37,529 nt of DNA, from IMG/VR virus record IMGVR_UViG_2718218168_000003. One strand, given 5' to 3'. This document shows, piece by piece, positions 10,655 to 36,143 of the stretch. The notes beneath the pieces are model-generated. The model saw only the letters and a program-made list of their open reading frames with translations, was not told the DNA's origin and ran no database searches. Position 1 is the stretch's first letter; each line of letters opens with the position of its first letter. Position numbers and translations under genes: made by a program. This DNA is from a virus. Its lineage: Duplodnaviria; Heunggongvirae; Uroviricota; Caudoviricetes.

Positions 10655-10673
10655 GGCGAGGCGGGGAAAGCAC
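10655..10673. other. cos site: 19-nt P2 cohesive-end sequence GGCGAGGCGGGGAAAGCAC
   Basis: Exact match to the recalled P2 cohesive end; positioned just beyond the 3-prime end of Q, as in P2. Confidence 0.8.
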
Positions 10674-10823: not shown

Positions 10824-10845
10824 AAAAAAGCCGCCCGCAGGCGGC
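10824..10845 (-). terminator. Rho-independent terminator downstream of Q (stem GCCGCC / GGCGGC followed by U6 on the minus strand)
   Basis: GC hairpin and A6 run on the plus strand immediately 3-prime of the Q stop. Confidence 0.55.
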
Positions 10846-10850
10846 GATGT

Positions 10851-11885: not shown

Positions 11886-13657
11886 CAGTAAAACTCCAGA
11901 ATGGTGGATGTCAGCGGGGTGCTGATACCGGCGGTGAGTGGCTCATTTAACAGGGCGTGCATGGTCGCCCAGGCGAGGTCGGCGTGGCTGGCTTCCTCGC
12001 TGCGGCTGGCCTCATAGGTGGCGCTGCGTCCGCTGCTGGTCATGGTCTTGCGGATAGCCATAAACGAGCTGGTGATGTCGGTGGCGCTGACGTCATATTC
12101 CAGACAGCCACGGCGGATAACGTCTTTTGCCTTGAGCACCATTGCGGTTTTCATTTCCGGTGTGTAGCGGATATCGCGCGCGGCGGGATAGAACGAGCGC
12201 ACGAGCTGGAACACGCCGACACCGAGGCCGGTGGCATCAATACCGATGTATTCGACGTTGTATTTCTCGGTGAGTTTGCGGATGGATTCCGCCTGGGTGG
12301 CAAAGTCCATGCCTTTCCACTGGTGACGCTCAAGTATTCTGAATTTCCCACCGGCCACCACCGGCGGTGCCAGTACCACGCATCCGGCGCTGTCGCCACG
12401 GTGTGACGGGTCGTAACCAATCCATACCGGACGTGAGCCGAACGGATTGGCGGCAAACGGCGCATAGTCTTCCCATTCTTCCAGCGTGTCGACCATGCAG
12501 CGTTGCAGCTCCTCGAACGGGAACACCGACGCCTTGTCGTCAACAAATTCACACATGAACAGGTTTTTAAAATCGTCGGCGCTGTTTTCACGTTTGAGCT
12601 GCTCAATGTCGAACAGCGTGCAGCCGCCTTTCAGGGCATCCTCAATGGTGACAATCTGCCGCCACTGGCCGTCCGCACAGAGAAGACCTCCGGCAAGGGC
12701 GTTATGACTGACGTCGATTTCCACGCGTTCGGCGGCGCTGGCGCGTCCCCGGTTGAATAGTTCACCCGACCAGAACGGGTAGGCGTCGTGCGCCAGCGTG
12801 GACGGGGTGGAGAAATAGGTCGAGCGCAGGTGACTCTGTGAGGCCATACCTGATGCCACCTTACGCAGTACCTGAAAATTCGGGATCCAGAAAATCTCGT
12901 CGACGTACAGGTCGCCGTTATGGCTCTGTGCGGTGTTGGAGTTGGTGCCGAGAAAAATCAGTTTTGCGCCGTTATTGCCCAGGACAATCGGGTCACCGGT
13001 CAGGTCAACGTCAACCAGACGGGCAAAGGCGATGATGTATTCGCGGAACACATACGCCTGCGTTTTACTGGCCGACAGAAAAATCTGGTTATGACCGGTT
13101 TTCAGGGCGCGCAGCAGCGCCTCGCGGGAAAAATAAAACGTCGCGCCAATCTGGCGGGATTTCAGGATATCGCGGATGCGGTGCTCAAGCCCGGCGCGAT
13201 ACCAGTGCAACTGATAGTCGAAAGACTGCTCAAAGAAAATCTGCTCCAGCTTTTCGATGGCCTCGTCACTGAAAAAATTCTTTTTCGGTTTGCGCCGCCC
13301 GCCTTTGTTGCGGTTAGCGACGTTCGGATTAAGGTCTGCCTCGTTGCCGGTCTGGCTGTAGCGGTTTACCCGTGCCAGTCGTTCAATCTGGCGTCCGAGC
13401 AGGTCAATTTCCTTGAAGTCACCGCCGGTTTTCTGCGGTTTGATGATGAGCTGGGTCAGCCGCGCTTCCAGGCTCATTTCGACACGGCTGATGGGGGCAA
13501 CACTGTCCCAGCCGTCGCGCTGTTTCCAGCTCTGCACCGTCGGGCGTTTCATCTGCAACATGGCGGCAATCTGCGGCACGGAAAATCCCTGCCAGTACAG
13601 CAGCGCCGCCTGACGACGCGGGTCGTGTAAAAGAGTGGTGTCTGTGGTGATGGTCAT
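11885..13657 (-). CDS. P: Terminase large subunit (ATPase) gpP, about 590 aa
   Basis: Start chosen at MTITTDTTLLHDP (ATG complement at 13655..13657), matching the recalled P2 gpP N-terminus; the ORF track extends 10 codons further upstream. Confidence 0.9.
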   Translation of the reverse strand: MTITTDTTLLHDPRRQAALLYWQGFSVPQIAAMLQMKRPTVQSWKQRDGWDSVAPISRVEMSLEARLTQLIIKPQKTGGDFKEIDLLGRQIERLARVNRYSQTGNEADLNPNVANRNKGGRRKPKKNFFSDEAIEKLEQIFFEQSFDYQLHWYRAGLEHRIRDILKSRQIGATFYFSREALLRALKTGHNQIFLSASKTQAYVFREYIIAFARLVDVDLTGDPIVLGNNGAKLIFLGTNSNTAQSHNGDLYVDEIFWIPNFQVLRKVASGMASQSHLRSTYFSTPSTLAHDAYPFWSGELFNRGRASAAERVEIDVSHNALAGGLLCADGQWRQIVTIEDALKGGCTLFDIEQLKRENSADDFKNLFMCEFVDDKASVFPFEELQRCMVDTLEEWEDYAPFAANPFGSRPVWIGYDPSHRGDSAGCVVLAPPVVAGGKFRILERHQWKGMDFATQAESIRKLTEKYNVEYIGIDATGLGVGVFQLVRSFYPAARDIRYTPEMKTAMVLKAKDVIRRGCLEYDVSATDITSSFMAIRKTMTSSGRSATYEASRSEEASHADLAWATMHALLNEPLTAGISTPLTSTILEFY

Positions 13658-13830
13658 GAATACCTCGCCGTGATGAATACACGGCAAGGCTACTGAGTCG
13701 CGCCCCGCGATTCGCTAAGGTGCTGTTGTGTCAGTGATAAGCCATCCGGGACTGATGGCGGAGGATGCGCATCGTCGGGAAACTGATGCCGACATGTGAC
13801 TCCTCTAATCACTATTCAGGACTCCTGACA
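13658..13830. promoter_or_regulatory. Divergent late promoter region (P2 PP leftward, PO rightward); Ogr-dependent
   Basis: Intergenic region between divergent P and O; assignment by P2 architecture; contains the dyad CCATCCGGGACTGATGG; an exact TGT-N12-ACA element was not confirmed by eye. Confidence 0.45.
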
Positions 13831-14685
13831 ATGGCAAAAAAAGTCTCAAAATTCTTTCGTATCGGCGTTGAGGGTGACACCTGTGACGGGCGTGTCATCA
13901 GTGCGCAGGATATTCAGGAAATGGCCGAAACCTTTGACCCGCGTGTCTATGGTTGCCGCATTAACCTGGAACATCTGCGCGGCATCCTGCCTGACGGTAT
14001 TTTTAAACGTTATGGCGATGTGGCCGAACTGAAGGCCGAAAAGATTGACGATGATTCGGCGCTGAACGGCAAATGGGCGCTGTTTGCGAAAATCACCCCG
14101 ACCGATGACCTTATTGCGATGAACAAGGCCGCGCAGAAGGTCTATACCTCAATGGAAATTCAGCCGAACTTTGCCAATACAGGCAAATGTTATCTGGTGG
14201 GTCTGGCCGTCACCGATGACCCGGCAAGCCTCGGCACGGAATACCTGGAATTCTGCCGCACGGCAAAACACAACCCTCTGAACCGCTTCAAATTAAGCCC
14301 TGAAAACCTGATTTCAGTGGCAACGCCTGTTGAGCTGGAATTTGAAGACCTGCCTGAAACCGTGTTCACCGCCCTGACCGAAAAGGTGAAATCCATTTTT
14401 GGCCGCAAACAGGCCAGCGATGACGCCCGTCTGAATGATGTGCATGAAGCGGTGACCGCTGTTGCTGAACATGTGCAGGAAAAACTGAGCGCCACTGAGC
14501 AGCGCCTCGCTGAGATGGAAACCGCCTTTTCCGCACTTAAGCAGGATGTGACTGACAGGGCGGATGAAACCAGCCAGGCATTCACCCGCTTGAAAAACAG
14601 TCTCGACCACACCGAAAGTCTGACCCAGCAGCGCCGCAGCAAGGCCACTGGCGGTGGCGGTGATGCCCTGCTGACGAACTGCTGA
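13831..14685 (+). CDS. O: Capsid scaffolding protein gpO (284 aa)
   Basis: Start MAKKVSKFF at 13831 matches recalled P2 gpO; the ORF track starts further upstream at 13765. Confidence 0.9.
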   Translation: MAKKVSKFFRIGVEGDTCDGRVISAQDIQEMAETFDPRVYGCRINLEHLRGILPDGIFKRYGDVAELKAEKIDDDSALNGKWALFAKITPTDDLIAMNKAAQKVYTSMEIQPNFANTGKCYLVGLAVTDDPASLGTEYLEFCRTAKHNPLNRFKLSPENLISVATPVELEFEDLPETVFTALTEKVKSIFGRKQASDDARLNDVHEAVTAVAEHVQEKLSATEQRLAEMETAFSALKQDVTDRADETSQAFTRLKNSLDHTESLTQQRRSKATGGGGDALLTNC

Positions 14686-14743
14686 CCGGCGTCAGTCAGT
14701 CCGGGAAAACCTTCACGATTAACCCTTAATTTCAGGAAAAACT

Positions 14744-15817
14744 ATGCGCCAGGAAACCCGCTTTAAATTTAATGCTTACCTGTCCCGTGTTGCCGAACTG
14801 AACGGCATCGACGCCGGTGATGTGTCGAAAAAATTCACCGTTGAACCGTCGGTCACCCAGACCCTGATGAACACCATGCAGGAGTCCTCTGACTTTCTGA
14901 CCCGCATCAACATTGTGCCGGTCAGCGAAATGAAAGGGGAAAAAATTGGCATCGGTGTCACCGGCTCCATCGCCAGCACCACCGACACCGCCGGTGGCAC
15001 CGAGCGTCAGCCGAAGGACTTCTCGAAGCTGGCGTCTAACAAGTACGAATGCGACCAGATTAACTTCGATTTTTATATCCGCTACAAAACGCTGGACCTG
15101 TGGGCGCGTTATCAGGATTTCCAGCTCCGTATCCGTAACGCCATTATCAAACGCCAGTCCCTTGATTTAATCATGGCCGGTTTTAACGGCGTGAAGCGTG
15201 CCGAAACCTCTGACCGCAGCAGTAACCCGATGCTGCAGGATGTGGCGGTCGGCTGGCTGCAGAAATACCGCAATGAAGCCCCGGCGCGCGTGATGAGCAA
15301 GGTTACTGACGAGGAAGGTCACACGACCTCTGAGGTCATCCGCGTGGGTAAGGGCGGTGATTATGCCAGCCTCGATGCACTGGTGATGGATGCGACCAAC
15401 AACCTGATTGAACCGTGGTATCAGGAAGACCCTGACCTTGTGGTGATTGTGGGTCGTCAGCTACTGGCGGACAAGTATTTCCCCATCGTTAACAAGGAGC
15501 AGGACAACAGCGAAATGCTGGCCGCTGACGTCATCATCAGCCAGAAACGCATCGGTAACCTGCCGGCGGTACGCGTCCCGTACTTCCCGGCGGATGCGAT
15601 GCTCATCACGAAGCTGGAAAACCTGTCCATCTACTACATGGATGACAGCCATCGCCGCGTGATTGTGGAAAACCCGAAACTCGACCGCGTGGAGAACTAC
15701 GAGTCAATGAACATTGATTACGTGGTGGAAGACTACGCCGCCGGTTGTCTGGTGGAAAAAATTAAGGTCGGTGATTTCTCCACACCGGCTAAGGCGACCG
15801 CAGAGCCGGGAGCGTAA
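14744..15817 (+). CDS. N: Major capsid protein gpN (357 aa)
   Basis: Full ORF; recalled as P2 gpN. Confidence 0.95.
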   Translation: MRQETRFKFNAYLSRVAELNGIDAGDVSKKFTVEPSVTQTLMNTMQESSDFLTRINIVPVSEMKGEKIGIGVTGSIASTTDTAGGTERQPKDFSKLASNKYECDQINFDFYIRYKTLDLWARYQDFQLRIRNAIIKRQSLDLIMAGFNGVKRAETSDRSSNPMLQDVAVGWLQKYRNEAPARVMSKVTDEEGHTTSEVIRVGKGGDYASLDALVMDATNNLIEPWYQEDPDLVVIVGRQLLADKYFPIVNKEQDNSEMLAADVIISQKRIGNLPAVRVPYFPADAMLITKLENLSIYYMDDSHRRVIVENPKLDRVENYESMNIDYVVEDYAAGCLVEKIKVGDFSTPAKATAEPGA

Positions 15818-15820
15818 CCG

Positions 15821-16564
15821 ATGACGAGTCCCGCACAGCGCCACATGATGCGGGTCTCGGCAGCGATGACCGCGCAGCGGGAAGCCGCCCCGCTGCGACA
15901 TGCAACTGTCTATGAGCAGATGCTGGTCAAGCTGGCCGCAGACCAGCGCACACTGAAAGCGATTTATTCAAAAGAGCTTAAGGCCGCGAAAAAACGCGAA
16001 CTGTTGCCGTTCTGGTTGCCGTGGGTGAACGGCGTGCTGGAGCAGGGCAAAGGTGCACAGGATGACATTCTGATGACGGTCATGCTGTGGCGTCTGGATA
16101 CCGGCGATATTGCCGGTGCGCTGGAGATTGCCCGTTATGCCCTGAAGTACGGTCTGACCATGCCGGGTAAACACCGCCGCACCCCGCCGTACATGTTCAC
16201 CGAGGAGGTGGCGCTCGCGGCCATGCGCGCCCACGCTGCCGGTGAGTCTGTGGATCCCCGCCTGCTGACGGAGACCCTCGAACTGACCGCCACGGCTGAC
16301 ATGCCTGATGAAGTGCGCGCAAAGCTGCACAAAATCACCGGTCTGTTTCTGCGTGACGGTGGTGATGCCGCCGGTGCGCTGGCTCACCTGCAACGTGCGA
16401 CACAGCTCGACTGTCAGGCAGGCGTCAAAAAAGAGATTGAACGACTGGAGCGGGAGCTGAAACCGAAGCCGGAGCCGCAACCCAAAGCGGCCACCCGTGC
16501 CACGCGTAAGACCCGGAGCGTGACACCGGCAAAACGTGGACGCCCGAAAAAGAAAGCCAGTTAA
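15821..16564 (+). CDS. M: Terminase small (endonuclease) subunit gpM (247 aa)
   Basis: Full ORF; recalled as P2 gpM. Confidence 0.93.
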   Translation: MTSPAQRHMMRVSAAMTAQREAAPLRHATVYEQMLVKLAADQRTLKAIYSKELKAAKKRELLPFWLPWVNGVLEQGKGAQDDILMTVMLWRLDTGDIAGALEIARYALKYGLTMPGKHRRTPPYMFTEEVALAAMRAHAAGESVDPRLLTETLELTATADMPDEVRAKLHKITGLFLRDGGDAAGALAHLQRATQLDCQAGVKKEIERLERELKPKPEPQPKAATRATRKTRSVTPAKRGRPKKKAS

Positions 16565-16663
16565 CAACCGAATGCGCCCCGCGCCAGGGCGGCACGCCGG
16601 TCAGTGAGGGTGAATCACCTGACACTACACCGGCGTCCACCGCCCGACTTTTCAGAGGTAGTC

Positions 16664-17173
16664 ATGATGACGCTGATTATTCCGCGAAAGGAGGCTCCCG
16701 TGTCCGGTGAGGGTACGGTGGTCATCCCGCAACCGGCAGGCGACGAGCCGGTGATTAAAAACACGTTCTTTTTTCCCGATATCGACCCGAAGCGCGTCCG
16801 GGAACGTATGCGCCTTGAGCAGACCGTCGCCCCCGCCCGTCTGCGTGAGGCCATCAAGTCAGGCATGGCTGAAACGAATGCGGAGCTGTACGAGTACCGC
16901 GAACAGAAAATTGCTGCCGGTTTTACGCGTCTGGCGGACGTCCCGGCGGACGACATCGACGGTGAAAGCATCAAAGTTTTTTACTACGAGCGCGCCGTGT
17001 GTGCGATGGCGACCGCGTCGCTTTATGAGCGTTATCGCGGCGTGGATGCCAGTGCGAAAGGCGACAAGAAGGCTGACAGCATTGACAGCACCATTGATGA
17101 ACTGTGGCGGGATATGCGCTGGGCAGTGGCGCGCATCCAGGACAAGCCGCGCTGCATCGTGAGTCAAATCTGA
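16664..17173 (+). CDS. L: Head completion/stabilisation protein gpL (169 aa)
   Basis: Start MMTLIIPRKE at 16664 matches recalled P2 gpL. Confidence 0.88.
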   Translation: MMTLIIPRKEAPVSGEGTVVIPQPAGDEPVIKNTFFFPDIDPKRVRERMRLEQTVAPARLREAIKSGMAETNAELYEYREQKIAAGFTRLADVPADDIDGESIKVFYYERAVCAMATASLYERYRGVDASAKGDKKADSIDSTIDELWRDMRWAVARIQDKPRCIVSQI

Positions 17174-17376
17174 TGAAGACCTTTGCGCTACAGGGCGACA
17201 CGCTCGACGCCATTTGTGTCCGGTATTACGGGCGCACTGAGGGCGTGGTTGAAGCCGTGCTTGCCGCAAATCCGGGACTGGCTGAACTGGGTGCGGTGCT
17301 GCCGCACGGCACCGCCGTCGAACTGCCCGACGTTCAGACCGCGCCCGTGGCTGAAACTGTCAATCTGTGGGAGTAA
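17173..17376 (+). CDS. X: Tail protein gpX (67 aa)
   Basis: Start MKTFALQGD at 17173, overlapping the L stop; recalled as P2 gpX. Confidence 0.85.
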   Translation: MKTFALQGDTLDAICVRYYGRTEGVVEAVLAANPGLAELGAVLPHGTAVELPDVQTAPVAETVNLWE

Positions 17377-17379
17377 CGC

Positions 17380-17661
17380 ATGACAGCAGAAGAAAAAAGC
17401 GTCCTGTCGCTTTTCATGATTGGGGTGCTGATTGTTGTCGGCAAGGTGCTTGCCGGTGGTGAACCCATCACCCCGCGTCTGTTTATCGGGCGCATGTTGC
17501 TCGGTGGTTTTGTCTCGATGGTTGCCGGTGTTGTTCTGGTGCAGTTTCCTGACCTGTCACTGCCTGCGGTGTGCGGCATTGGCTCCATGCTGGGTATCGC
17601 CGGTTATCAGGTGATTGAGATTGCCATTCAGCGCCGCTTTAAGGGCAGGGGGAAACCGTAA
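17380..17661 (+). CDS. Y: Holin gpY (93 aa)
   Basis: Hydrophobic transmembrane-rich ORF in the lysis cassette; recalled as P2 Y. Confidence 0.88.
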   Translation: MTAEEKSVLSLFMIGVLIVVGKVLAGGEPITPRLFIGRMLLGGFVSMVAGVVLVQFPDLSLPAVCGIGSMLGIAGYQVIEIAIQRRFKGRGKP

Positions 17662-26705: not shown

Positions 26706-27896
26706 ATGAGTGACTATCATCACGGCGTGCAGGTGCTGGAGATTAACGACGGCACCCGCGTCATTTCCACCGTATCCACTGCCATTGTCGGCATGGTCTG
26801 CACGGCCAGCGATGCAGATGCGGAAACCTTCCCCCTCAATAAACCGGTGCTGATTACCAATGTGCAGAGCGCAATTGCAAAGGCTGGTAAAAAAGGCACG
26901 CTGGCGGCATCGTTGCAGGCCATCGCCGACCAGTCAAAACCGGTCACCGTTGTCGTACGTGTGGAAGACGGCACCGGCGACGACGAGGAAACGAAACTCG
27001 CACAGACCGTTTCCAATATCATCGGCACCACTGACGAAAACGGTCAGTACACCGGACTGAAAGCCCTGCTGGCGGCGGAGTCGGTAACCGGTGTTAAACC
27101 GCGTATTCTTGGTGTGCCGGGGCTGGATACCAAAGAGGTGGCTGTTGCACTGGCATCAGTCTGTCAGAAGCTGCGCGCTTTCGGATATATCAGCGCATGG
27201 GGCTGTAAAACCATTTCCGAGGTGAAAGCCTACCGCCAGAATTTCAGCCAGCGTGAGCTGATGGTCATCTGGCCGGATTTCCTCGCATGGGATACAGTCA
27301 CCAGTACCACCGCCACCGCGTATGCCACCGCCCGTGCGCTGGGTCTGCGTGCTAAAATCGACCAGGAGCAGGGCTGGCATAAAACGCTGTCCAACGTCGG
27401 GGTAAACGGTGTTACCGGCATCAGCGCATCTGTATTCTGGGATTTGCAGGAGTCCGGCACCGATGCTGACCTGCTTAACGAGTCAGGCGTCACTACGCTG
27501 ATTCGCCGCGACGGTTTCCGATTCTGGGGTAACCGTACCTGCTCTGATGACCCGCTGTTCCTCTTTGAAAACTACACCCGCACCGCGCAGGTGCTGGCCG
27601 ACACGATGGCTGAGGCGCACATGTGGGCGGTGGACAAGCCCATCACCGCAACGCTGATTCGCGACATCGTTGATGGCATCAATGCCAAATTCCGAGAGCT
27701 GAAAACAAACGGCTATATCGTGGATGCGACCTGCTGGTTCAGTGAAGAATCCAACGATGCGGAAACCCTCAAGGCCGGAAAACTGTATATCGACTACGAC
27801 TATACCCCAGTGCCTCCTCTTGAAAACCTGACCCTGCGCCAGCGTATTACCGATAAATACCTGGCAAATCTGGTCACCTCGGTTAACAGCAATTAA
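26706..27896 (+). CDS. FI: Tail sheath protein gpFI (396 aa)
   Basis: Full ORF; recalled as P2 FI. Confidence 0.95.
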   Translation: MSDYHHGVQVLEINDGTRVISTVSTAIVGMVCTASDADAETFPLNKPVLITNVQSAIAKAGKKGTLAASLQAIADQSKPVTVVVRVEDGTGDDEETKLAQTVSNIIGTTDENGQYTGLKALLAAESVTGVKPRILGVPGLDTKEVAVALASVCQKLRAFGYISAWGCKTISEVKAYRQNFSQRELMVIWPDFLAWDTVTSTTATAYATARALGLRAKIDQEQGWHKTLSNVGVNGVTGISASVFWDLQESGTDADLLNESGVTTLIRRDGFRFWGNRTCSDDPLFLFENYTRTAQVLADTMAEAHMWAVDKPITATLIRDIVDGINAKFRELKTNGYIVDATCWFSEESNDAETLKAGKLYIDYDYTPVPPLENLTLRQRITDKYLANLVTSVNSN

Positions 27897-27908
27897 GGAG
27901 CCTGACCG

Positions 27909-28427
27909 ATGGCAATGCCGCGCAAACTCAAGTTAATGAACGTCTTTCTGAACGGCTACAGCTATCAGGGCGTTGCAAAGTCCGTCACGCTGCCAAAACT
28001 GACCCGTAAGCTCGAAAACTATCGCGGTGCGGGGATGAACGGCAGCGCACCGGTAGACCTCGGCCTTGATGACGATGCGCTGTCAATGGAGTGGTCGCTC
28101 GGGGGCTTCCCGGATTCGGTTATCTGGGAGCTTTACGCCGCAACCGGTGTGGATGCCGTGCCGATTCGTTTTGCAGGCTCTTACCAGCGCGACGATACCG
28201 GCGAAACGGTGGCCGTCGAAGTGGTCATGCGTGGACGTCAGAAAGAAATCGACACCGGCGAGGGCAAACAGGGAGAAGACACCGAGTCGAAAATCTCCGT
28301 GGTCTGCACCTATTTCCGGCTGACGATGGACGGTAAGGAGCTGGTCGAAATCGATACCATCAACATGATTGAGAAGGTGAACGGCGTCGACCGGCTGGAG
28401 CAACACCGCCGCAATATCGGCCTGTGA
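27909..28427 (+). CDS. FII: Tail tube protein gpFII (172 aa)
   Basis: Full ORF; recalled as P2 FII. Confidence 0.95.
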   Translation: MAMPRKLKLMNVFLNGYSYQGVAKSVTLPKLTRKLENYRGAGMNGSAPVDLGLDDDALSMEWSLGGFPDSVIWELYAATGVDAVPIRFAGSYQRDDTGETVAVEVVMRGRQKEIDTGEGKQGEDTESKISVVCTYFRLTMDGKELVEIDTINMIEKVNGVDRLEQHRRNIGL

Positions 28428-28483
28428 TTTTCATCCGGTCAGCCAGGCTGACCGGTTAACCCCGATTCAGAAGTGAGAAAACC

Positions 28484-28729
28484 ATGAACAAAGAAAATGT
28501 CATTACCCTGGAAAATCCGGTCAAGCGTGGTGAGCAGGTCATCGAACAGGTCACGCTGATGAAACCCAGTGCCGGGACACTGCGCGGTGTCAGTCTGGCT
28601 GCGGTTGCAAACTCCGAAGTCGATGCACTGATTAAGGTACTGCCGCGCATGACGGCACCGATGCTGACCGAGCAGGAGGTCGCCGCGCTGGAACTGCTGC
28701 GTATTACCGTGAAGGAGATCGGTGAGTAA
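28484..28729 (+). pseudogene. E: Tail assembly chaperone gene E interrupted by an IS: P2-like E sequence up to 28697, then 10 codons of IS-derived sequence before a stop
   Basis: Translation matches recalled P2 gpE up to ...AALEL and then diverges exactly at the IS left inverted repeat; the rest of E resumes at 31279. Confidence 0.8.
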
Positions 28730-28782
28730 CATCGATGGAGATCGGTTCGTGTCACTTTCACAGAACCGTTTTTAAATTACCT

Positions 28783-29532
28783 TCACTGATCTCCTTCGGT
28801 CAACGGAGATTGTATTTTCCGCATTGATTCTCCTTTAAGTTCGATCTTGATACTGCCATGAACCAGTCGATCTAGGATGGCATCCGCATGTGTGGAGTCT
28901 CCGATCATTTTGTACCAGTTTTCCACCGGCAACTGGCTCACTACGATGATTGAGCCTCGTTGGTACATCAGATCCACTATTTCCAGCAGGTCGCTACGCT
29001 GTTCTGATGAGAGAGGTTCCAGCCCCCAGTCATCCAGAAGCAGCAGATCGCTATTATTCAGCCTGGTCAAAAGTTTGCTGTATCTTCCATCAGCATGCCC
29101 CTGATAGCACTGTTCCATCAGCGCTTTAAGGCGATAATAGTAGACCTTGTATCCCTGTCGGCAGGCATTATGACCAAGTGCACATGCCAGGAACGTTTTA
29201 CCGCTGCCGGTGGCCCCGGTCAGTAAAATATTTTGTTTCAGGGTTAACCAGTTTCCCTGACTGAGTGAACGGATGAGGGCCCTGTCCAGCCCTCTATTGT
29301 TACGATAATCCAGCTTTGATAACTCAGCATTAAGTCTGAACCGTGCATGTTTGATCAGACGCTCTGCCTTCCTGTTTTCACGGCAGGTTAGTTCTTCTGC
29401 TGTCAGTAATGACAGGCGTTCTTCGAAGCCCAGCTCCTGGTATGTGCCCGGCTGAGCAAGTTGCTTTTTAAGCGCATCACGGAAGCCGGTGAGTTTAAGT
29501 GCGGTCAGTTGTTCGTAAAGATGATTCATCAT
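28783..29532 (-). CDS. istB: IS21-family transposition helper ATPase IstB (249 aa)
   Basis: Walker A GATGSGKT and Walker B LLLLDD; typical IstB length. Confidence 0.9.
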   Translation of the reverse strand: MMNHLYEQLTALKLTGFRDALKKQLAQPGTYQELGFEERLSLLTAEELTCRENRKAERLIKHARFRLNAELSKLDYRNNRGLDRALIRSLSQGNWLTLKQNILLTGATGSGKTFLACALGHNACRQGYKVYYYRLKALMEQCYQGHADGRYSKLLTRLNNSDLLLLDDWGLEPLSSEQRSDLLEIVDLMYQRGSIIVVSQLPVENWYKMIGDSTHADAILDRLVHGSIKIELKGESMRKIQSPLTEGDQ

Positions 29533-29543
29533 TGGATCCCGTA

Positions 29544-31085
29544 TCAGTGGTAATACTCACTGCCGCGTACGTTTTCGTGTTCCATCGTGGATAACAGATC
29601 TGGTTTTGGATCCTGAACAGGTTGTTTATCCAGACCTTTTTCCAGGATCGATTTAATACCTGACAGACGCCATACCTTTGTTTTCAGAGCTCTTGCACAT
29701 GCTGCATTAAGTCTGGCTTTACTGTATTTTTTATGAAGGTTCAGGAGTCCAAGGCAGAAGCGATAGCTTTGTTCCGGATGTGGACGAGAGTTCAGTATAT
29801 GAAGCACATAACTATGAGTTTCACTGCCTATGTGCCCCGCCCATTCCAGAAGACGCTCTGGCGTCCAGGTGGCATGCTGTCGATGAGCTTCAGGCATGTG
29901 CTCGTTGCGGGTACTGTAGCCATAAGTACGCTTGCGCGGGTGCACAGCAACCTCCTGCCCCTGATTGAAGAGTCTTACCAGTTCTCCGGAGATCCATGCT
30001 TCCAGTTGCTGGCCTAACAGCGAACATGGAACCGAGTAGTAATGTTTGTCGATTTCCACGTGGTAATCGGCATGAACTCTGACTTTCTTCACCAGGGTGT
30101 AACTGTAACTGGCTTCAGGAAGAGGCTTCAGTGCGGGTTTATCAAGCTGGATGAAGAGTTCTGCACGTGAATAACCCAACTTCTGCATTATTTTGTTATT
30201 CAGTCTTTCCAGCAACTCCCGAATGCGCTGATTAAGCGATGCAAGGCTGTAGAAGATCTCATGCCTGATTCGGGCCATGATCCAGCGTTCAACAACCTGA
30301 ACGCCAACTTCAGCTTTGGCTTTATCTTTCGGTTTACGTGGCCGCGCAGGCAAAACTGCGACATTATAATGCTCAAGCATCTGCTGGTAGGTAGGGTTAA
30401 CGTCAGGATCATACTTACATGCCCTGGATGTGGCGCTTTTCAGATTGTCCGGAACAACAAGTTCAGGAACGCCACCCAACCACTGGAAGCAGCGAACATG
30501 ACTCATCACCCAGTCTTCAAGCTGCTGAGACCAGGTGGCCTCTGCCCATGTGTAACTTGATGCCCCGAGAACAGCTACGATGACCTGAGCAGTTCTTATT
30601 TCTCCGGTCTCAGGGTCGGTAACGCCAACGGTAGGTCCACAGTAATCAACGAAAAGTTTTTCGCCAGCTTTATGTACCTGACGCATTGATGGTGAAGTGG
30701 TTTTGAGCCATTCACGGTACATCCGGCAGTAATGGTTATAGCTGTAAAAACCGCCTGGATTACGCTCACAGTATTCTTCCCAGAGTAGCTGCAGCGTCAC
30801 GCATTTATTACGCAGTTCCCGGTGTACTGTAGCCCAGTCAGGCAGAGAGTGCTTCTTCATCTTAACCTGGGTCTGAAGGAACGCATGTTTTAGTTTTGTA
30901 TCATCCCATCCTGTAGGTAAGGGCCACTGCTTTATGCCAAGTTGAGCCGCCCGATTAGCATATCTGGATACAACGGAAGGGGAGATTGCAAGACTACGAC
31001 CAATTTGTCGATGGCTGAGTCCAACACCGTATTTAAGCCTAAGAATTTCTTTAAGTTTTCTCATAGAAATTGGAACTGTTGGCAT
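29544..31085 (-). CDS. istA: IS21-family transposase IstA (513 aa)
   Basis: N-terminal HTH followed by a DDE integrase-like core; immediately upstream of istB on the same strand. Confidence 0.88.
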   Translation of the reverse strand: MPTVPISMRKLKEILRLKYGVGLSHRQIGRSLAISPSVVSRYANRAAQLGIKQWPLPTGWDDTKLKHAFLQTQVKMKKHSLPDWATVHRELRNKCVTLQLLWEEYCERNPGGFYSYNHYCRMYREWLKTTSPSMRQVHKAGEKLFVDYCGPTVGVTDPETGEIRTAQVIVAVLGASSYTWAEATWSQQLEDWVMSHVRCFQWLGGVPELVVPDNLKSATSRACKYDPDVNPTYQQMLEHYNVAVLPARPRKPKDKAKAEVGVQVVERWIMARIRHEIFYSLASLNQRIRELLERLNNKIMQKLGYSRAELFIQLDKPALKPLPEASYSYTLVKKVRVHADYHVEIDKHYYSVPCSLLGQQLEAWISGELVRLFNQGQEVAVHPRKRTYGYSTRNEHMPEAHRQHATWTPERLLEWAGHIGSETHSYVLHILNSRPHPEQSYRFCLGLLNLHKKYSKARLNAACARALKTKVWRLSGIKSILEKGLDKQPVQDPKPDLLSTMEHENVRGSEYYH

Positions 31086-31278
31086 AGGTATCCTTTACCG
31101 GAATGGCAAAAGATACAGATCAACACACCTGTGAAGTTCCAATAACATTGATGGAGATCACTGAATAACAAAATGAGTCAAAAGTGATCTCCATCGATGT
31201 TATTCAGCGATCTGTTCAAATGTTATTACCCGATCTCGATGGAAGTTATTGAGTGATCTCCTTTCATGAAAATACGCA

Positions 31279-31495
31279 ACTGCCTGACCTTGTGGCGCTG
31301 GCCGGTAAGGTGGTCGGTTTTTTGTCGCCGAACTCGGTGCAGTGACGTTTCCGAAAAATCTGTCGGTCGATGACCTGATGGCAGATGTGGCAGTGATATT
31401 TCACTGGCCGCCATCAGAACTGTATCCCATGAGCCTGACCGAACTCATCACATGGCGCGAAAAGGCGCTCCGGCGAAGCGGAAACACGAATGAGT
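31279..31495 (+). pseudogene. E: Displaced 3-prime part of E (ends 31345) and the E-prime frameshift extension; the T6G slippery site GGTTTTTTG is at 31316..31324
   Basis: Translation from 31280 gives LPDLVALAGKVVGFLSPNSVQ, matching the recalled P2 gpE C-terminus; the -1 frame runs on to overlap the T start. Confidence 0.7.
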
Positions 31496-33937
31496 AACAA
31501 TGTAAAATTACAGGTATTGCTCAGGGCTGTTGACCAGGCATCCCGCCCGTTTAAATCCATCCGCACAGCGAGTAAGTCGCTGTCGGGGGATATCCGGGAA
31601 ACACAAAAATCACTGCGCGAGCTGAACGGTCAGGCATCCCGTATTGAGGGATTTCGCAAGACCAGTGCGCAGCTCGCCGTGACTGGTCATGCACTTGAAA
31701 AGGCACGGCAGGAAGCCGAAGCCCTTGCCACACAGTTTAAAAACACCGAACGTCCGACCCGTGCTCAGGCGAAAGTGCTGGAATCCGCAAAGCGAGCGGC
31801 GGAGGACTTACAGGCGAAATATAACCGCCTGACGGATTCCGTTAAACGCCAGCAGCGGGAACTGGCCGCTGTGGGAATTAATACCCGCAATCTTGCACAT
31901 GATGAGCAGGGACTGAAAAACCGTATCAGTGAAACCACCGCACAGCTTAACCGTCAGCGCGACGCGCTGGCGCGTGTCAGTGCGCAACAGGCAAAACTTA
32001 ACGCAGTCAAACAGCGTTATCAGGCCGGAAAGGAACTGGCCGGAAATATGGCCTCAGTGGGCGCTGCCGGTGTGGGGATTGCGGCGGCGGGAACGATGGC
32101 CGGAGTTAAGTTGCTGATGCCCGGTTATGAGTTTGCGCAGAAAAACTCAGAATTGCAGGCCGTGCTCGGAGTGGCAAAAGACTCCGCCGAAATGACCGCA
32201 CTACGCAAACAGGCGCGCCAGCTCGGCGACAATACCGCCGCCTCGGCGGATGATGCGGCCGGTGCACAGATAATCATCGCGAAAGCGGGTGGGGATGTTG
32301 ATGCCATTCAGGCGGCAACGCCGGTCACGCTGAATATGGCGCTGGCGAACCGCCGCACGATGGAAGAAAACGCCGCCCTGCTGATGGGGATGAAATCCGC
32401 CTTTCAGCTTTCAAACGATAAGGTCGCTCATATCGGGGATGTTCTCTCCATGACGATGAACAAAACCGCCGCCGATTTTGACGGCATGAGCGATGCGCTG
32501 ACCTATGCCGCACCTGTGGCAAAAAATGCCGGTGTCAGCATTGAAGAAACCGCCGCAATGGTCGGGGCGCTGCATGATGCAAAAATCACAGGCTCAATGG
32601 CGGGGACGGGAAGCCGTGCCGTGTTAAGCCGCCTGCAGGCACCGACGGGAAAAGCATGGGATGCACTCAAAGAGCTTGGAGTGAAAACCTCAGACAGCAA
32701 GGGAAACACCCGGCCAATATTTACCATTCTGAAAGAAATGCAGGCCAGTTTTGAGAAAAACCGGCTCGGTACTGCCCAGCAGGCTGAATACATGAAAACT
32801 ATTTTCGGGGAGGAGGCCAGCTCAGCCGCCGCCGTGCTGATGATTGCCGCCTCAACCGGAAAGCTGGACAAACTGACCGCTGCGTTTAAAGCCTCAGACG
32901 GGAAGACCGCCGAGCTGGTAAATATCATGCAGGACAACCTAGGCGGTGACTTTAAAGAGTTTCAGTCCGCTTATGAGGCAGTGGGGACTGACCTGTTTGA
33001 CCAGCAGGAAAGCGCACTGCGTAAGCTCACGCAGACGGCCACAAAGTATGTGTTAAAACTCGACGGCTGGATCCAGAAAAACAAATCACTGGCGTCAACC
33101 ATCGGCATCATTGCCGGTGGCGCGCTGGCGCTTACTGGCATCATCGGTGCCATTGGCCTCGTAGCCTGGCCGGTTATCACCGGCATCAATGCCATCATCG
33201 CGGCAGCAGGCGCAATGGGGGCAGTCTTCACGACGGTTGGCAGTGCTGTTATGACCGCCATCGGGGCTATTAGCTGGCCGATTGTGGCCGTGGTGGCCGC
33301 AATTGTCGCCGGGGCGTTGCTTATCCGTAAATACTGGGAGCCTGTCAGCGCATTCTTTGGCGGTGTGGTTGAAGGGCTGAAAGTGGCATTTGCGCCGGTG
33401 GGGGAACTGTTCACGCCACTTAAGCCGGTGTTTGACTGGCTGGGTGAAAAGTTACAGGCCGCGTGGCAGTGGTTTAAAAACCTGATTGCCCCGGTCAAAG
33501 CCACTCAGGATACCCTGAACCGTTGCCGTGACACGGGGGTCATGTTCGGGCAGGCACTGGCTGACGCGCTGATGCTGCCGCTTAATGCGTTCAACAAACT
33601 GCGCAGTGGTATTGACTGGGTACTGGAAAAACTCGGTGTTATCAACAAAGAGTCAGACACACTTGACCAGACCGCCGCCAGAACTCAAGCTGCCACGTAT
33701 GGCAGCGGTGGTTATATTCCGGCGACCAGCTCTTATGCAGGTTATCAGGCTTATCAGCCGGTCACGGCACCGGCTGGCCGCTCTTATGTGGACCAGAGTA
33801 AAAACGAATATCACATCAGCCTGACGGGTGGTACTGCGCCGGGGACACAGCTCGACCGCCAGTTACAGGATGCGCTCGAAAAATACGAGCGGGATAAACG
33901 TGCGCGCGCCCGTGCCAGCATGATGCATGACGGTTAA
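31490..33937 (+). CDS. T: Tail tape measure protein gpT (815 aa)
   Basis: Full ORF; recalled as P2 gpT; internal hydrophobic Gly/Ala-rich segment typical of tape measure proteins. Confidence 0.95.
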   Translation: MSNNVKLQVLLRAVDQASRPFKSIRTASKSLSGDIRETQKSLRELNGQASRIEGFRKTSAQLAVTGHALEKARQEAEALATQFKNTERPTRAQAKVLESAKRAAEDLQAKYNRLTDSVKRQQRELAAVGINTRNLAHDEQGLKNRISETTAQLNRQRDALARVSAQQAKLNAVKQRYQAGKELAGNMASVGAAGVGIAAAGTMAGVKLLMPGYEFAQKNSELQAVLGVAKDSAEMTALRKQARQLGDNTAASADDAAGAQIIIAKAGGDVDAIQAATPVTLNMALANRRTMEENAALLMGMKSAFQLSNDKVAHIGDVLSMTMNKTAADFDGMSDALTYAAPVAKNAGVSIEETAAMVGALHDAKITGSMAGTGSRAVLSRLQAPTGKAWDALKELGVKTSDSKGNTRPIFTILKEMQASFEKNRLGTAQQAEYMKTIFGEEASSAAAVLMIAASTGKLDKLTAAFKASDGKTAELVNIMQDNLGGDFKEFQSAYEAVGTDLFDQQESALRKLTQTATKYVLKLDGWIQKNKSLASTIGIIAGGALALTGIIGAIGLVAWPVITGINAIIAAAGAMGAVFTTVGSAVMTAIGAISWPIVAVVAAIVAGALLIRKYWEPVSAFFGGVVEGLKVAFAPVGELFTPLKPVFDWLGEKLQAAWQWFKNLIAPVKATQDTLNRCRDTGVMFGQALADALMLPLNAFNKLRSGIDWVLEKLGVINKESDTLDQTAARTQAATYGSGGYIPATSSYAGYQAYQPVTAPAGRSYVDQSKNEYHISLTGGTAPGTQLDRQLQDALEKYERDKRARARASMMHDG

Positions 33938-33951
33938 GGAGGTGACGAAAA

Positions 33952-34431
33952 ATGATGCTCGCGTTAGGTATGTTTGTTTTTATGCGCCAGACGCTGCCAC
34001 ACCAGACCATGCAGCGTGAATCAGATTATCGCTGGCCGTCAAATTCCCGTATCGGCAAACGGGATGCCTTTCAGTTTCTCGGTGTGGGTGAGGAAAACAT
34101 CACGCTGGCCGGTGTGCTTTATCCCGAACTGACCGGCGGCAAGCTGACGATGACCACGCTCAGGCTGATGGCAGAGGAAGGTCGGGCGTGGCCGTTGCTG
34201 GATGGCACCGGCATGATTTACGGCATGTATGTCATCAGTAAGGTGAGTGAAACAGGGAGTATTTTCTTTGCAGACGGCACACCCCGAAAAATTGATTTTA
34301 CGCTGTCGCTCACCCGCGTTGATGAATCACTGGCCGCGCTTTATGGCGATATCGGTAAACAGGCGGAATCGCTCATCGGTAAGGCTGGCAGTATGGCGAC
34401 TAAATTCACGGGTATGACGGGGGCGGGATAA
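33952..34431 (+). CDS. U: Tail protein gpU (159 aa)
   Basis: Full ORF; recalled as P2 gpU. Confidence 0.9.
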   Translation: MMLALGMFVFMRQTLPHQTMQRESDYRWPSNSRIGKRDAFQFLGVGEENITLAGVLYPELTGGKLTMTTLRLMAEEGRAWPLLDGTGMIYGMYVISKVSETGSIFFADGTPRKIDFTLSLTRVDESLAALYGDIGKQAESLIGKAGSMATKFTGMTGAG

Positions 34432-35594
34432 TGCTGGATGCGCTGACATTTGATGCAGGCAGTACGCTGACGCCGGATTACATGCTGATGCTCGACAGCA
34501 GGGATATTACCAGCAATATCAGTGACCGTCTGATGAGCATGACCCTGACGGATAACCGGGGCTTTGAGGCTGACCAGCTTGATATTGAACTGAACGATGC
34601 CGACGGGCAGGTCGGGCTGCCGGTTCGTGGCGCTGTCCTGACGGTGTATATCGGCTGGAAAGGTTTTGCCCTGGTATGCAAAGGGAAATTCACCGTTGAT
34701 GAGGTTGAACACCGGGGCGCGCCGGATGTGGTCACCATCCGCGCCCGGAGTGCAGATTTCCGCGGGACGCTCAATTCCCGCCGGGAAGGCTCATGGCATG
34801 ACACCACGCTCGGTGCGATTGTTGAGGCGATAGCCTCCCGTAACAGGCTGGAAGCCAGTGTCGCTCCGTCACTGGCCGGAATTAAAATCCCGCACATCGA
34901 CCAGTCGCAGGAGTCTGATGCGAAATTCCTGACCCGTCTTGCAGAACGCAACGGCGGTGAGGTCTCGGTAAAAATGGGAAAACTGTTGTTTCTCAAAGCG
35001 GGGCAGGGGGTGACGGCCAGCGGTAAAAAAATCCCGCAGGTCACCATAACCCGCAGCGACGGCGACCGCCATCATTTTGCGATTGCTGACCGTGGAGCCT
35101 ATACCGGTGTAACGGCAAAGTGGTTACACACCAAAGACCCGAAGCCGCAAAAGCAGAAGGTAAAACTGAAACGCAAAAAGAAAGAGAAACACCTGCGCGC
35201 ACTGGAGCACCCGAAAGCGAAACCGGTCACGCAGAAGAAAGCGCCAAAAGTACCGGAAGCACGCGAAGGTGAATACATGGCCGGTGAGGCTGACAACGTT
35301 TTTGCCCTGACCACGGTATATGCCACGAAAGCGCAGGCCATGCGCGCCGCTCAGGCGAAGTGGGATAAACTGCAACGGGGTGTAGCGGAGTTCTCCATCA
35401 GCCTGGCTACCGGTCGGGCAGATATTTACACGGAAACACCGGTCAAAGTGTCAGGCTTTAAGCGTGTCATAGACGAGCAGGACTGGACAATCACTAAGGT
35501 GACACATTTTCTGAATAATAGCGGCTTCACGACGTCCTTAGAGCTTGAGGTAAGGCTTTCTGATGTGGAGTACGAAACCGAAGATGATGAGTGA
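34431..35594 (+). CDS. D: Tail protein gpD (387 aa)
   Basis: Full ORF; recalled as P2 gpD. Confidence 0.93.
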   Translation: MLDALTFDAGSTLTPDYMLMLDSRDITSNISDRLMSMTLTDNRGFEADQLDIELNDADGQVGLPVRGAVLTVYIGWKGFALVCKGKFTVDEVEHRGAPDVVTIRARSADFRGTLNSRREGSWHDTTLGAIVEAIASRNRLEASVAPSLAGIKIPHIDQSQESDAKFLTRLAERNGGEVSVKMGKLLFLKAGQGVTASGKKIPQVTITRSDGDRHHFAIADRGAYTGVTAKWLHTKDPKPQKQKVKLKRKKKEKHLRALEHPKAKPVTQKKAPKVPEAREGEYMAGEADNVFALTTVYATKAQAMRAAQAKWDKLQRGVAEFSISLATGRADIYTETPVKVSGFKRVIDEQDWTITKVTHFLNNSGFTTSLELEVRLSDVEYETEDDE

Positions 35595-35676
35595 TGTGTT
35601 TTATTTTATCTGTTTGTTTTATAAGGATAAATTAACTAAAATGGCAACATCAACATAACCGGAAGAGGTGCTCGCG

Positions 35677-35895
35677 ATGTTTCATTGTCCTTTATGCCAG
35701 CATGCCGCACATGCGCGTACAAGTCGCTATATCACTGACACGACAAAAGAGCGTTATCACCAGTGTCAGAACGTGAATTGCAGCGCCACGTTCATCACTT
35801 ATGAGTCTGTACAGCGATACATTGTGAAGCCGGGAGAAGTCCACGCCGTGAGGCCGCACCCGTTGCCGTCAGGGCAGCAAATTATGTGGATGTAA
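35677..35895 (+). CDS. ogr: Late gene transcriptional activator Ogr (zinc finger, 72 aa)
   Basis: Start MFHCPLCQHAAHA at 35677; CxxC...C...C zinc-binding pattern; recalled as P2 Ogr. Confidence 0.9.
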   Translation: MFHCPLCQHAAHARTSRYITDTTKERYHQCQNVNCSATFITYESVQRYIVKPGEVHAVRPHPLPSGQQIMWM

Positions 35896-35906
35896 TTACA
35901 AACAGA

Positions 35907-35932
35907 AAGCCCCTCAGTCGAGGGGCTTTTTT
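35907..35932 (+). terminator. Rho-independent terminator after ogr (stem AGCCCCTC / GAGGGGCT, loop AGTC, then T6)
   Basis: Hairpin plus T-run seen in sequence. Confidence 0.65.
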
Positions 35933-35996
35933 GTCGATGTGGTCAATGTGTGGACGTGACCAGAAATAAATCCTTTTATTTCAATTTGTTGTACGT

Positions 35997-36023
35997 AAAA
36001 AATAAGCCCGTGTAAGGGAGATT
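35997..36023. repeat. attR core, 27 bp AAAAAATAAGCCCGTGTAAGGGAGATT
   Basis: Exact direct repeat of 1791..1817. Confidence 0.85.
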
Positions 36024-36083
36024 ACACAGGCTAAGGAGGTGGTTCCTGGTACAGCTAGCATTTTATGGGTTATGTTTTTCAGC
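35997..36083 (-). ncRNA. cyaR: CyaR (RyeE) Hfq-dependent sRNA, about 87 nt; its 3-prime 27 nt coincide with the prophage att core
   Basis: Minus-strand sequence GCTGAAAAACATAACCC...CACCTCCTTAGCC...CTTACACGGGCTTATTTTTT matches the recalled CyaR sequence, including the CCUCCUUA seed and the terminator U-tract. Confidence 0.75.
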
Positions 36084-36127
36084 GAAACGGATGATAACCT
36101 TAATAAATGCAGCTGTATGTGATCGGT

Positions 36128-36143
36128 TTCTAAGAATTTTCCA
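36128..36143. promoter_or_regulatory. Putative CRP-binding site (TGTGA-N6-TCTAA) centred about 40-45 bp upstream of the cyaR start (class II position)
   Basis: Half-site match to the CRP consensus; cyaR is known to be CRP-activated; coordinates approximate. Confidence 0.4.

What the first reader, a model, noticed from the sequence alone, without database searches (positions are those of the whole stretch)
35997..36083. Prophage attachment core coincides with the 3-prime terminator end of the sRNA gene cyaR
The 27-bp att core at attR is the last 27 nt of the minus-strand CyaR sRNA, including its terminator U-tract; integration therefore regenerates an intact cyaR using phage-identical core sequence. 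The attL copy (1791..1817) is paired with phage P-prime arm sequence instead. P2-like phages thus use an sRNA 3-prime end the way other phages use tRNA 3-prime ends. The upstream half of the CyaR terminator stem (GCCTGTGTAA) is bacterial and only the downstream half lies in the core, so the attL copy lacks the native stem partner.
Basis: partly seen in the sequence, partly recalled or inferred. Interest (0 to 1): 0.45.

Follow-up and report, generated by a model that had tools for sequence, protein, structure and literature searches.

The report
P2 prophage integrated at cyaR end
A P2-type prophage sits at the classic P2 attachment site, whose 27-bp core is the last 27 nucleotides of the small RNA gene cyaR, so integration rebuilds the gene intact; this is correct but already documented and common in E. 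coli.

Summary
AAAAAATAAGCCCGTGTAAGGGAGATT occurs exactly twice (1791-1817 and 35997-36023; none expected by chance). The identity is really 28 bp, because the preceding T is also shared. It equals the annotated attP core of phage P2.

An Rfam CyaR hit (100.7 bits) lies at 36000-36085 on the minus strand. Window 35997-36083 is 87/87 identical to the annotated cyaR of E. coli K-12 MG1655, and the core is its last 27 nt: 2 nt of the 5' terminator arm, the loop, the whole 3' arm and the U-tract.

The 34.2 kb between the copies is about 97% identical to P2. attL and attR are exactly what attP x attB recombination predicts (0 and 1 mismatches over 129 nt each).

The attL copy lacks the stem partner: -3.5 against -15.9 kcal/mol, with no terminator predicted.

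Published work lists ryeE/cyaR as a P2-type integration target, and the MG1655 record annotates cryptic prophage PR-X overlapping cyaR by 18 nt. Of 5426 complete E. coli genomes, 1196 carry a P2-arm/cyaR junction and 4206 have the empty site.

Side observations: the "empty" bacterial flank is a relic P arm, and an IS21-family element disrupts tail gene E.

The parts
35997..36083 (-). cyaR (ryeE) sRNA gene, intact, 87 nt
   Evidence: Rfam RF00112 match at 100.7 bits over 36000-36085. 87/87 identical to the annotated MG1655 cyaR.
35997..36023 (.). attR core. It is the last 27 nt of cyaR. The exact repeat is 28 bp, starting at 35996.
   Evidence: Exact copy of the P2 attP core. P2 homology ends at 36023.
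1791..1817 (.). attL core, a duplicated 3' fragment of cyaR without its 5' stem arm. The exact repeat is 28 bp, starting at 1790.
   Evidence: P2 homology starts at 1790. The copy folds at -3.5 kcal/mol and no terminator is called.
36005..36032 (-). CyaR intrinsic terminator hairpin. 3' arm 36005-36015, loop 36016-36021, 5' arm 36022-36032. The U-tract follows at 35997-36004.
   Evidence: Terminator scan. Fold energy -15.9 kcal/mol, z = -6.5.
35934..35961 (+). P arm: Int arm-type binding site (TGTGGTCA / TGTGGACG repeats)
   Evidence: Identical to the P2 feature 'Int, P arm' at 24293-24320.
35965..35998 (+). IHF binding site of the P arm
   Evidence: Corresponds to the P2 feature at 24324-24357. 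One difference from P2, at 35988.
35677..35895 (+). ogr late-gene activator, the last phage gene before attR. Its terminator is at 35906-35929.
   Evidence: Pfam Ogr_Delta, E = 1.2e-21. P2 annotation. Terminator scan.
1897..2910 (-). int, the P2-type tyrosine integrase. It is transcribed towards attL.
   Evidence: Pfam Int_N and Phage_integrase. 99.2% DNA identity to P2 int.
1905..1931 (+). P' arm: Int arm-type sites (TGTGGACA x2)
   Evidence: Corresponds to the P2 feature at 24470-24496.
1834..1907 (+). Cox binding region (excision directionality)
   Evidence: Corresponds to the P2 feature at 24399-24472. The cox gene at 3440-3715 matches Pfam Phage_Cox, E = 5.5e-48.
1790..36023 (.). P2-like prophage, about 34.2 kb. 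Order: int-C-cox-B-A ... cos ... Q-P-O-N ... D-ogr.
   Evidence: blastn against P2 gives about 97% identity in collinear blocks.
1730..1778 (+). Bacterial flank next to the attL core that is homologous to the phage P arm (a relic arm site)
   Evidence: Repeat family D2, 71% identity. Local alignment score 22 against 7.6 +/- 1.3 in 2000 shuffles. Also present in unoccupied sites.
36118..36133 (-). CRP-box-like sequence TGTGAtcggttTCTAA, centred about 42 nt upstream of the cyaR start
   Evidence: Read from the sequence. CRP dependence of cyaR is taken from the literature (PMC3333887 introduction). Not tested here.

Best explanation
A P2-type temperate phage integrated by Int/IHF-mediated site-specific (Campbell) recombination. 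The exchange was between its attP core and the identical 27-bp bacterial core at the classical preferred P2 site; I identify that site as locI from my own knowledge of the P2 literature. The bacterial core is the 3' end of the CRP-dependent, Hfq-binding sRNA gene cyaR. It comprises the terminator loop, the 3' stem arm and the U-tail.

Because the phage carries the same 27 bp, the attR junction rebuilds a full-length cyaR with an intact terminator. The attL junction keeps only a non-functional 3' fragment, lying next to int. This is the same logic that lets elements integrate into tRNA and tmRNA 3' ends without inactivating them.

Shown here: the sequence identities, the junction structure, the intact gene and the predicted terminator. 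Inferred: the actual recombination chemistry, the crossover position inside the core, and normal CyaR expression in the lysogen.
For: - The core is an exact duplicate, not expected by chance.
- It equals the annotated P2 attP core, with the Int, IHF and Cox sites alongside.
- P2 homology breaks exactly at the core edges.
- attL and attR are reconstructed from an empty E. coli site plus P2 attP with 0 and 1 mismatches over 129 nt each.
- int, cox, C and ogr are present.
- CyaR is found by Rfam at 100.7 bits and is 87/87 identical to K-12 cyaR.
- The terminator is retained at attR only.
- Among 5426 E. coli genomes, 4206 have the empty site, 1196 have P arm-core-cyaR and 816 have flank-core-P'.
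- The same P arm abuts CyaR in E. ruysiae, Buttiauxella and Scandinavium.
- Literature: PMC3603311 states that ryeE in E. coli was previously known to be targeted by phages. PMC3032704 Table 2 lists 'cyaR RNA' as the insertion site of P2-type elements in strains W, K-12 and B.
Against: Nothing in the sequence contradicts it. Three limits apply. The crossover point cannot be located, because the core is identical in both partners. Expression and the 3' end of CyaR in this lysogen are not measured. The sequence downstream of the U-tract differs between the empty site and attR from the second base past the tract, which could in principle change termination efficiency.
Confidence: 0.96

Rival explanations
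1. The phage targets a generic intrinsic-terminator hairpin (dyad symmetry plus an A/T tract), not an sRNA gene as such. That the terminator belongs to cyaR would be incidental, so the parallel with tRNA genes is one of DNA shape and conservation rather than of RNA-gene identity.
For: In other species, P2-type P arms (arm site plus IHF site) are followed by unrelated cores. Many of these are G+C-rich hairpins flanked by A/T runs with no Rfam RNA gene next to them, for example L013, L031, L045, L046, L051, L070, L071 and L082. No RNA family match was found within 2.5 kb of the prophage end in 48 of 80 loci.
Against: 32 of 80 loci do have an RNA gene whose 3' end faces the prophage. The cyaR use recurs in three genera, with the core tracking each host's terminator sequence. 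This nuance does not change what happened in this window.
Confidence: 0.3
2. Integration is not neutral for CyaR. The new downstream context at attR (phage P arm instead of the bacterial flank) would change termination efficiency or read-through, altering CyaR levels or producing transcripts antisense to ogr.
For: The sequence after the U-tract differs between the empty site (AUGCAUAAGCCC, which can pair with GGGCUUAU of the core) and attR (ACGUACAACAAA). The CyaR terminator is reported to allow about 41% read-through in a reporter construct (PMC9765468). Some empty sites have U7 rather than U6.
Against: The 87-nt gene, the hairpin and the U6 tract are identical at attR and in empty sites with the A6 allele. 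About 22% of E. coli genomes, K-12 included, carry the P arm context, and CyaR has been studied as functional in K-12. The inverted ogr terminator hairpin at 35906-35929 could stop read-through.
Confidence: 0.15
3. The 27-bp repeat is a chance repeat or a transposon target-site duplication unrelated to site-specific recombination.
For: None beyond the bare existence of a direct repeat.
Against: 0 matches expected by chance. The repeat is identical to the experimentally annotated P2 attP core with its flanking Int, IHF and Cox sites. The junctions are reconstructed exactly from attP and attB.
Confidence: 0.01

Closest known systems
Bacteriophage P2 integration at its preferred E. coli site. From my own knowledge this is locI (Yu, Bertani and Haggard-Ljungquist 1989; Barreiro and Haggard-Ljungquist 1992); those papers were not readable here.
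   Same: Identical 27-bp core. The same Int, IHF and Cox sites, the same int gene (99.2% identity) and the same ogr-proximal attR.
   Different: The prophage differs from P2 in cargo. The old/tin, orf30 and fun(Z) regions are replaced or absent, and an IS21-family element lies in gene E.
Cryptic prophage PR-X (ogrK-yegZ remnant) of E. coli K-12
   Same: The same attR junction (P arm-core-cyaR). The MG1655 record annotates PR-X as overlapping the 3' end of cyaR.
   Different: In K-12 only about 630 bp survive (D'-ogrK). The left core is truncated to 18 nt and fused to gene D. Here the whole prophage and both full cores are present.
Integration of phages and islands into the 3' ends of tRNA and tmRNA genes. 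Reiter 1989 is cited in PMC13586616 and Williams 2002 in PMC3603311.
   Same: The core overlaps the 3' end of a structured, conserved RNA gene. The element carries the duplicate, so the gene is regenerated and a 3' fragment is left at the other end.
   Different: The target is an Hfq-dependent sRNA terminator rather than a tRNA stem-loop. Also, int lies at the end distal to the intact RNA gene. My recollection, not tested here, is that int usually lies next to the tRNA in P4-like and lambdoid islands.
The ryeA/ryeB (SraC/SdsR) sRNA locus as an insertion hot spot in Salmonella (Balbontin 2008, cited in PMC3603311)
   Same: An sRNA locus is used as an integration site. SdsR/RyeA loci also lie 1.6-2.4 kb downstream of the P2-like gpD gene in 5 of the 80 loci surveyed.
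   Different: It is a different sRNA and a different core. I did not map the att sites in those loci.

Membership tests
CyaR/RyeE sRNA (Rfam RF00112) | Covariance-model score above the curated gathering score, full length | tested here: met
   100.7 bits against 47, model positions 1-85 of 85.
CyaR/RyeE sRNA (Rfam RF00112) | Identity to the annotated E. coli cyaR and conserved position next to yegQ/trhP | tested here: met
   87/87 identical to MG1655 b4438. The yegQ/trhP ORF lies at 36168-37529 (-).
CyaR/RyeE sRNA (Rfam RF00112) | Rho-independent terminator with U-tail (the Hfq-binding module) | tested here: met
   11-bp stem, 6-nt loop and UAUUUUUU tail, at -15.9 kcal/mol.
CyaR/RyeE sRNA (Rfam RF00112) | cAMP-CRP-dependent promoter | tested here: inconclusive
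   A CRP-box-like TGTGAtcggttTCTAA lies at 36118-36133, about 42 nt upstream. It was read by eye only. No sigma-70 consensus promoter was called.
P2-type Int/attP site-specific recombination system | Tyrosine integrase gene adjacent to att | tested here: met
   Pfam Int_N and Phage_integrase. 99.2% DNA identity to P2 int.
P2-type Int/attP site-specific recombination system | 27-bp core identical in attP and at both prophage ends | tested here: met
P2-type Int/attP site-specific recombination system | Arm-type Int sites (P, P'), an IHF site, and Cox sites with a cox gene | tested here: met
   Sequence correspondence to the annotated P2 protein_bind features. Pfam Phage_Cox.
P2-type Int/attP site-specific recombination system | Junctions equal the reciprocal recombinants of attP and an unoccupied attB | tested here: met
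   attL 0/129 and attR 1/129 mismatches to the prediction from strain MB165 attB and P2 attP.
P2-type Int/attP site-specific recombination system | Int-catalysed strand exchange within the core, and excision competence | not testable with these tools
   This needs recombination or excision assays.
Integration into the 3' end of an RNA gene with regeneration | The core overlaps the 3' end of the RNA gene, the gene stays intact at one junction, and a 3' fragment lies at the other | tested here: met
Integration into the 3' end of an RNA gene with regeneration | Normal length and abundance of the RNA in the lysogen | not testable with these tools
   This needs a Northern blot or 3' end mapping.

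The most novel reading that the evidence does not exclude
The unoccupied E. coli site may itself be a fossil attR. The bacterial flank next to the core in every empty site examined carries a decayed P2-type P arm: an exact TCGATGTGGTCAATG match in register with the core, with the IHF region deleted.

If so, the present 3' end of cyaR in the species would be the product of ancient and repeated phage integration. Phage cores and the CyaR terminator would then co-evolve across genera; Buttiauxella and Scandinavium show host-specific core variants, one with an A.C mismatch in the chimeric stem.

A further speculative layer concerns int. Its mRNA runs through attL, so its 3' end structure differs between the attP and attL contexts. 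This could give a lambda-sib-like difference in int expression.
Probability: 0.4. Interest if true: 0.3.

Novelty: already known. Interest (0 to 1): 0.1.

Why it matters
It is a clean textbook instance of a phage using the 3' end of a regulatory RNA gene as its landing site while carrying the replacement sequence, so the host keeps a working sRNA.

It explains why the region downstream of cyaR is variable in E. coli: about 22% of complete genomes carry a P2-type arm there. It also explains why genome annotations show a prophage overlapping cyaR.

It adds no new biology. Its practical use is for annotation, namely prophage boundaries at 1790/36023 and cyaR left intact.

Tried and rejected
- **Primary papers not available.** I tried to read De Lay and Gottesman 2009 (PMC2620814), Wassarman 2001 (PMC312727) and Barreiro and Haggard-Ljungquist 1992 (PMC206120). 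None is held. The statement that this is known therefore rests on secondary citations, on the MG1655 annotation and on my own recollection.
- **Literature searches with little or no result.** 'cyaR + integration site + integrase' found nothing. 'PR-X / ogrK / P2 remnant' gave nothing directly useful. PMC3333887 and PMC3632133 contained the search terms only in unrelated passages.
- **A7 versus A6 as a sign of an imperfect core match: rejected.** Empty sites with A6 that are 100% identical to the window flank exist.
- **A functional truncated transcript or terminator at attL: not supported.** No terminator or promoter is called that would support one.
- **Chance repeat or target-site duplication: rejected**.

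Full report
**1. The observation**

The sequence AAAAAATAAGCCCGTGTAAGGGAGATT occurs exactly twice in the window, at 1791-1817 and 35997-36023. There is no further match at up to three mismatches, and none is expected in shuffled sequence. Reading the flanks and extending the match shows the exact identity is 28 bp, because the preceding T (1790 and 35996) is shared.

Rfam finds a single RNA family in the window: CyaR_RyeE at 36000-36085 on the minus strand, 100.7 bits against a gathering score of 47, full model length. The 27-mer corresponds to 2167174-2167200, exactly the last 27 nt of that gene.

**2. What lies between the repeats**

Window 1790-3000 matches phage P2 (AF063097) 24355-25565 at 99.2%. 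Window 35400-36023 matches P2 23760-24382 at 97.4%. The two matches overlap in P2 by 28 bp. P2's own annotation places attP at 24356-24382 there, flanked by the following sites:

- the P-arm Int site;
- an IHF site;
- the core Int site;
- a Cox-binding region;
- the P' arm.

A whole-genome comparison shows window 1790-36023 is collinear with P2 at about 97% identity, in prophage order: int-C-cox-B-A ... cos ... Q-P-O-N ... D-ogr. Pfam confirms the integrase, C-type repressor, Cox and Ogr.

**3. Junction test**

E. coli HS and strain MB165 have the unoccupied arrangement yegS-yegR-core-cyaR-yegQ. I built the two reciprocal recombinants from MB165 attB and P2 attP. attL is reproduced with 0/129 mismatches. 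attR is reproduced with 1/129, a phage polymorphism at 35988. This is the signature of Campbell-type site-specific integration.

**4. Anatomy relative to the RNA**

The CyaR terminator is an 11-bp stem (5' arm 36022-36032, 3' arm 36005-36015) with a 6-nt loop (36016-36021), followed by UAUUUUUU. The core therefore supplies the U-tail, the whole 3' arm, the loop and the last two bases of the 5' arm. The other nine bases of the 5' arm are bacterial only.

- At attR the hairpin folds at -15.9 kcal/mol (z = -6.5).
- At attL the same 3' fragment joined to the P' arm folds at -3.5 kcal/mol, no better than shuffles, and no terminator is called there.

**5. Mechanism**

- Shown: identical cores in phage and host; conserved Int, IHF and Cox sites; int and cox genes; exact recombinant junctions; an intact sRNA gene.
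- Inferred from established knowledge of P2 (the features annotated in AF063097, and my own knowledge of the P2 literature): Int with IHF recombines the attP and attB cores, and Cox directs excision. The crossover position cannot be read from the sequence because the core is identical in both partners.
- The phage carries a copy of the host terminator's loop, 3' arm and U-tail, which is the module that Hfq-dependent sRNAs need. Insertion therefore does not truncate CyaR.

**6. How common, and how general**

Among 5426 complete E. coli genomes:

| Junction type | Genomes |
|---|---|
| Empty site (flank-core-cyaR) | 4206 |
| P arm-core-cyaR (includes K-12-type remnants) | 1196 |
| Flank-core-P' (attL type) | 816 |

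In K-12 the remnant is D'-ogrK-P arm-core-cyaR, with a truncated left core.

I then surveyed 80 P2-like gpD loci from other species. An RNA gene whose 3' end faces the prophage end was found in 32 of them:

- a tRNA in 24; the 14 of these scanned with ARAGORN were 12 tRNA with anticodon CAT and 2 tRNA-Lys;
- the SdsR/RyeA locus in 5;
- CyaR in 3 (E. ruysiae, a Scandinavium MAG, Buttiauxella sp.).

In Buttiauxella and Scandinavium the same P arm abuts a CyaR whose terminator, and hence the core, has host-specific substitutions. So the parallel with tRNA targets holds within the P2 family itself.

**7. Comparison with what is known**

- Bobay et al. (PMC3603311) state that ryeE in E. coli was [quoted passage not shown].
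- The E. coli W genome paper (PMC3032704) lists "cyaR RNA" as the insertion site of Wphi2 (P2) in W, ogr-D' in K-12 and P2*B in B.
- The MG1655 record annotates cryptic prophage PR-X at 2167183-2167811, overlapping cyaR by 18 nt.
- From my own knowledge, this is the classical P2 site locI, and the K-12 remnant was described by Barreiro and Haggard-Ljungquist (1992). I could not open that paper, Wassarman 2001 or De Lay and Gottesman 2009.

The finding is therefore correct and already known.

**8. Rivals**

- Chance repeat or transposon duplication is excluded.
- A nuance with some support: P2-type integrases may recognise terminator-like dyads in general. Many P2-type P arms in other species are followed by unrelated hairpin-plus-A/T-tract cores with no Rfam gene nearby. 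This does not alter what happened here.
- A context effect on CyaR termination remains untested. The sequence beyond the U-tract differs between the empty site and attR, and the CyaR terminator is reported as leaky in a reporter (PMC9765468).

**9. Side observations**

- *Relic P arm in the "bacterial" flank.* The 49 nt at 1730-1778 next to attL are homologous to the phage P arm (71% identity). They include an exact TCGATGTGGTCAATG in register with the core. The local alignment score is 22, against 7.6 +/- 1.3 in 2000 shuffles. The same sequence is present in unoccupied sites. The empty site thus looks like a fossil attR.
- *Altered cargo.* A PDC-S28-type helicase replaces old/tin, and an Mrr-like protein replaces fun(Z).
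- *IS21-family insertion.* An element (IstA/IstB) with a 5-6 bp target duplication interrupts tail gene E upstream of the E/E' frameshift site. The prophage is therefore probably tail-defective.

**10. Verdict**

Novelty: already known. Interest: low.

Noticed in passing
window 1730-1778 (also L003 3441-3489 in E. coli HS): The bacterial flank beside the att core, in both occupied and unoccupied sites, is homologous to the P2 P arm. It has an exact TCGATGTGGTCAATG plus GTGACCAG, 71% identity over 49 nt, and a 16-nt deletion of the IHF region. The 'empty' attB therefore looks like a fossil attR of an ancient P2-like prophage. As a result, attL here is a relic P arm, the core and P', which resembles attP.
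   Followed up: partly
window 1731-1740: AAGGGAGATT, the right-hand 10 nt of the core, occurs again about 50 nt to the left of the attL core, just after the yegR-side hairpin (1695-1725). It could be chance or another relic core fragment.
   Followed up: no
window 28698-31278: An IS21-family element is inserted in tail gene E, upstream of the E/E' frameshift site. IstA is at 29544-31085 (-) and IstB at 28783-29532 (-). The terminal inverted repeats are TGCGTATT.../...AATACGCA, and the target duplication is 5-6 bp (A)ACTGC. Both gpE and gpE+E' are disrupted, so the prophage is probably unable to build tails.
   Followed up: partly
window 7682-10625: The P2 orf91/tin/old region is replaced by an 827-aa DinG/ResIII-like helicase (7988-10471, -). 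It matches the PADLOC candidate defence family PDC-S28 at 1055 bits. This is the known variable defence hotspot of P2-like phages.
   Followed up: partly
window 25350-26487: The fun(Z) region of P2 is replaced by a 303-aa ORF (25445-26356, +) with a weak Mrr_cat restriction-endonuclease domain (E = 4e-5). It has no PADLOC match.
   Followed up: partly
window 23025-23531: Tail-fibre gene H (22524-24734) contains three tandem copies with a 132-nt period (80-86% identical). P2 has one copy of this segment (13252-13459).
   Followed up: no
L003 3500-3506 versus window 1791-1796 and 35997-36002: The A-tract of the core, which is the U-tail of CyaR, is polymorphic among unoccupied E. coli sites. It is A7 in HS and in the K-12 left remnant, and A6 in MB165, P2 and this window. 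CyaR therefore has a U6 or U7 tail depending on the strain.
   Followed up: partly
window 1776-1806 (- strand) and L003 3484-3515: GGGCTTAT in the core and ATAAGCCC in the bacterial flank form an 8-bp hairpin just past the CyaR U-tract. It is present in the empty site and at attL but absent at attR. At attL it lies in the 3' untranslated path of int, which is transcribed towards attL. Any effect on int mRNA or CyaR read-through is untested.
   Followed up: no
L018 4598-4682, L055 1461-1545, L034 about 4840-4870: P2-type P arms abut CyaR in Scandinavium and Buttiauxella, with host-specific terminator and core variants. The Scandinavium stem has an A.C mismatch, as expected for a chimeric phage/host hairpin. 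In L034 (Buttiauxella MAG) a CyaR-like core fragment follows the P arm but the body of CyaR does not.
   Followed up: partly
loci L007-L086: Among 80 P2-like gpD loci from other species, the gene facing the prophage end is a tRNA in 24, the SdsR/RyeA locus in 5 and CyaR in 3. The 14 tRNAs typed with ARAGORN were 12 with anticodon CAT and 2 tRNA-Lys. Several loci without an RNA gene have terminator-like hairpin cores after a P2-type P arm. L056 (Pectobacterium) has P4-type C4 and isrK RNAs immediately after gpD/ogr, suggesting a satellite integrated in tandem.
   Followed up: partly
NZ_CP134387.1 11335-11418 (88-kb plasmid; hits H60 and H72): The ogr terminator and P-arm segment (window about 35900-35983) also occurs on a few E. 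coli plasmids, in 6 places in total. I did not look at its context.
   Followed up: no
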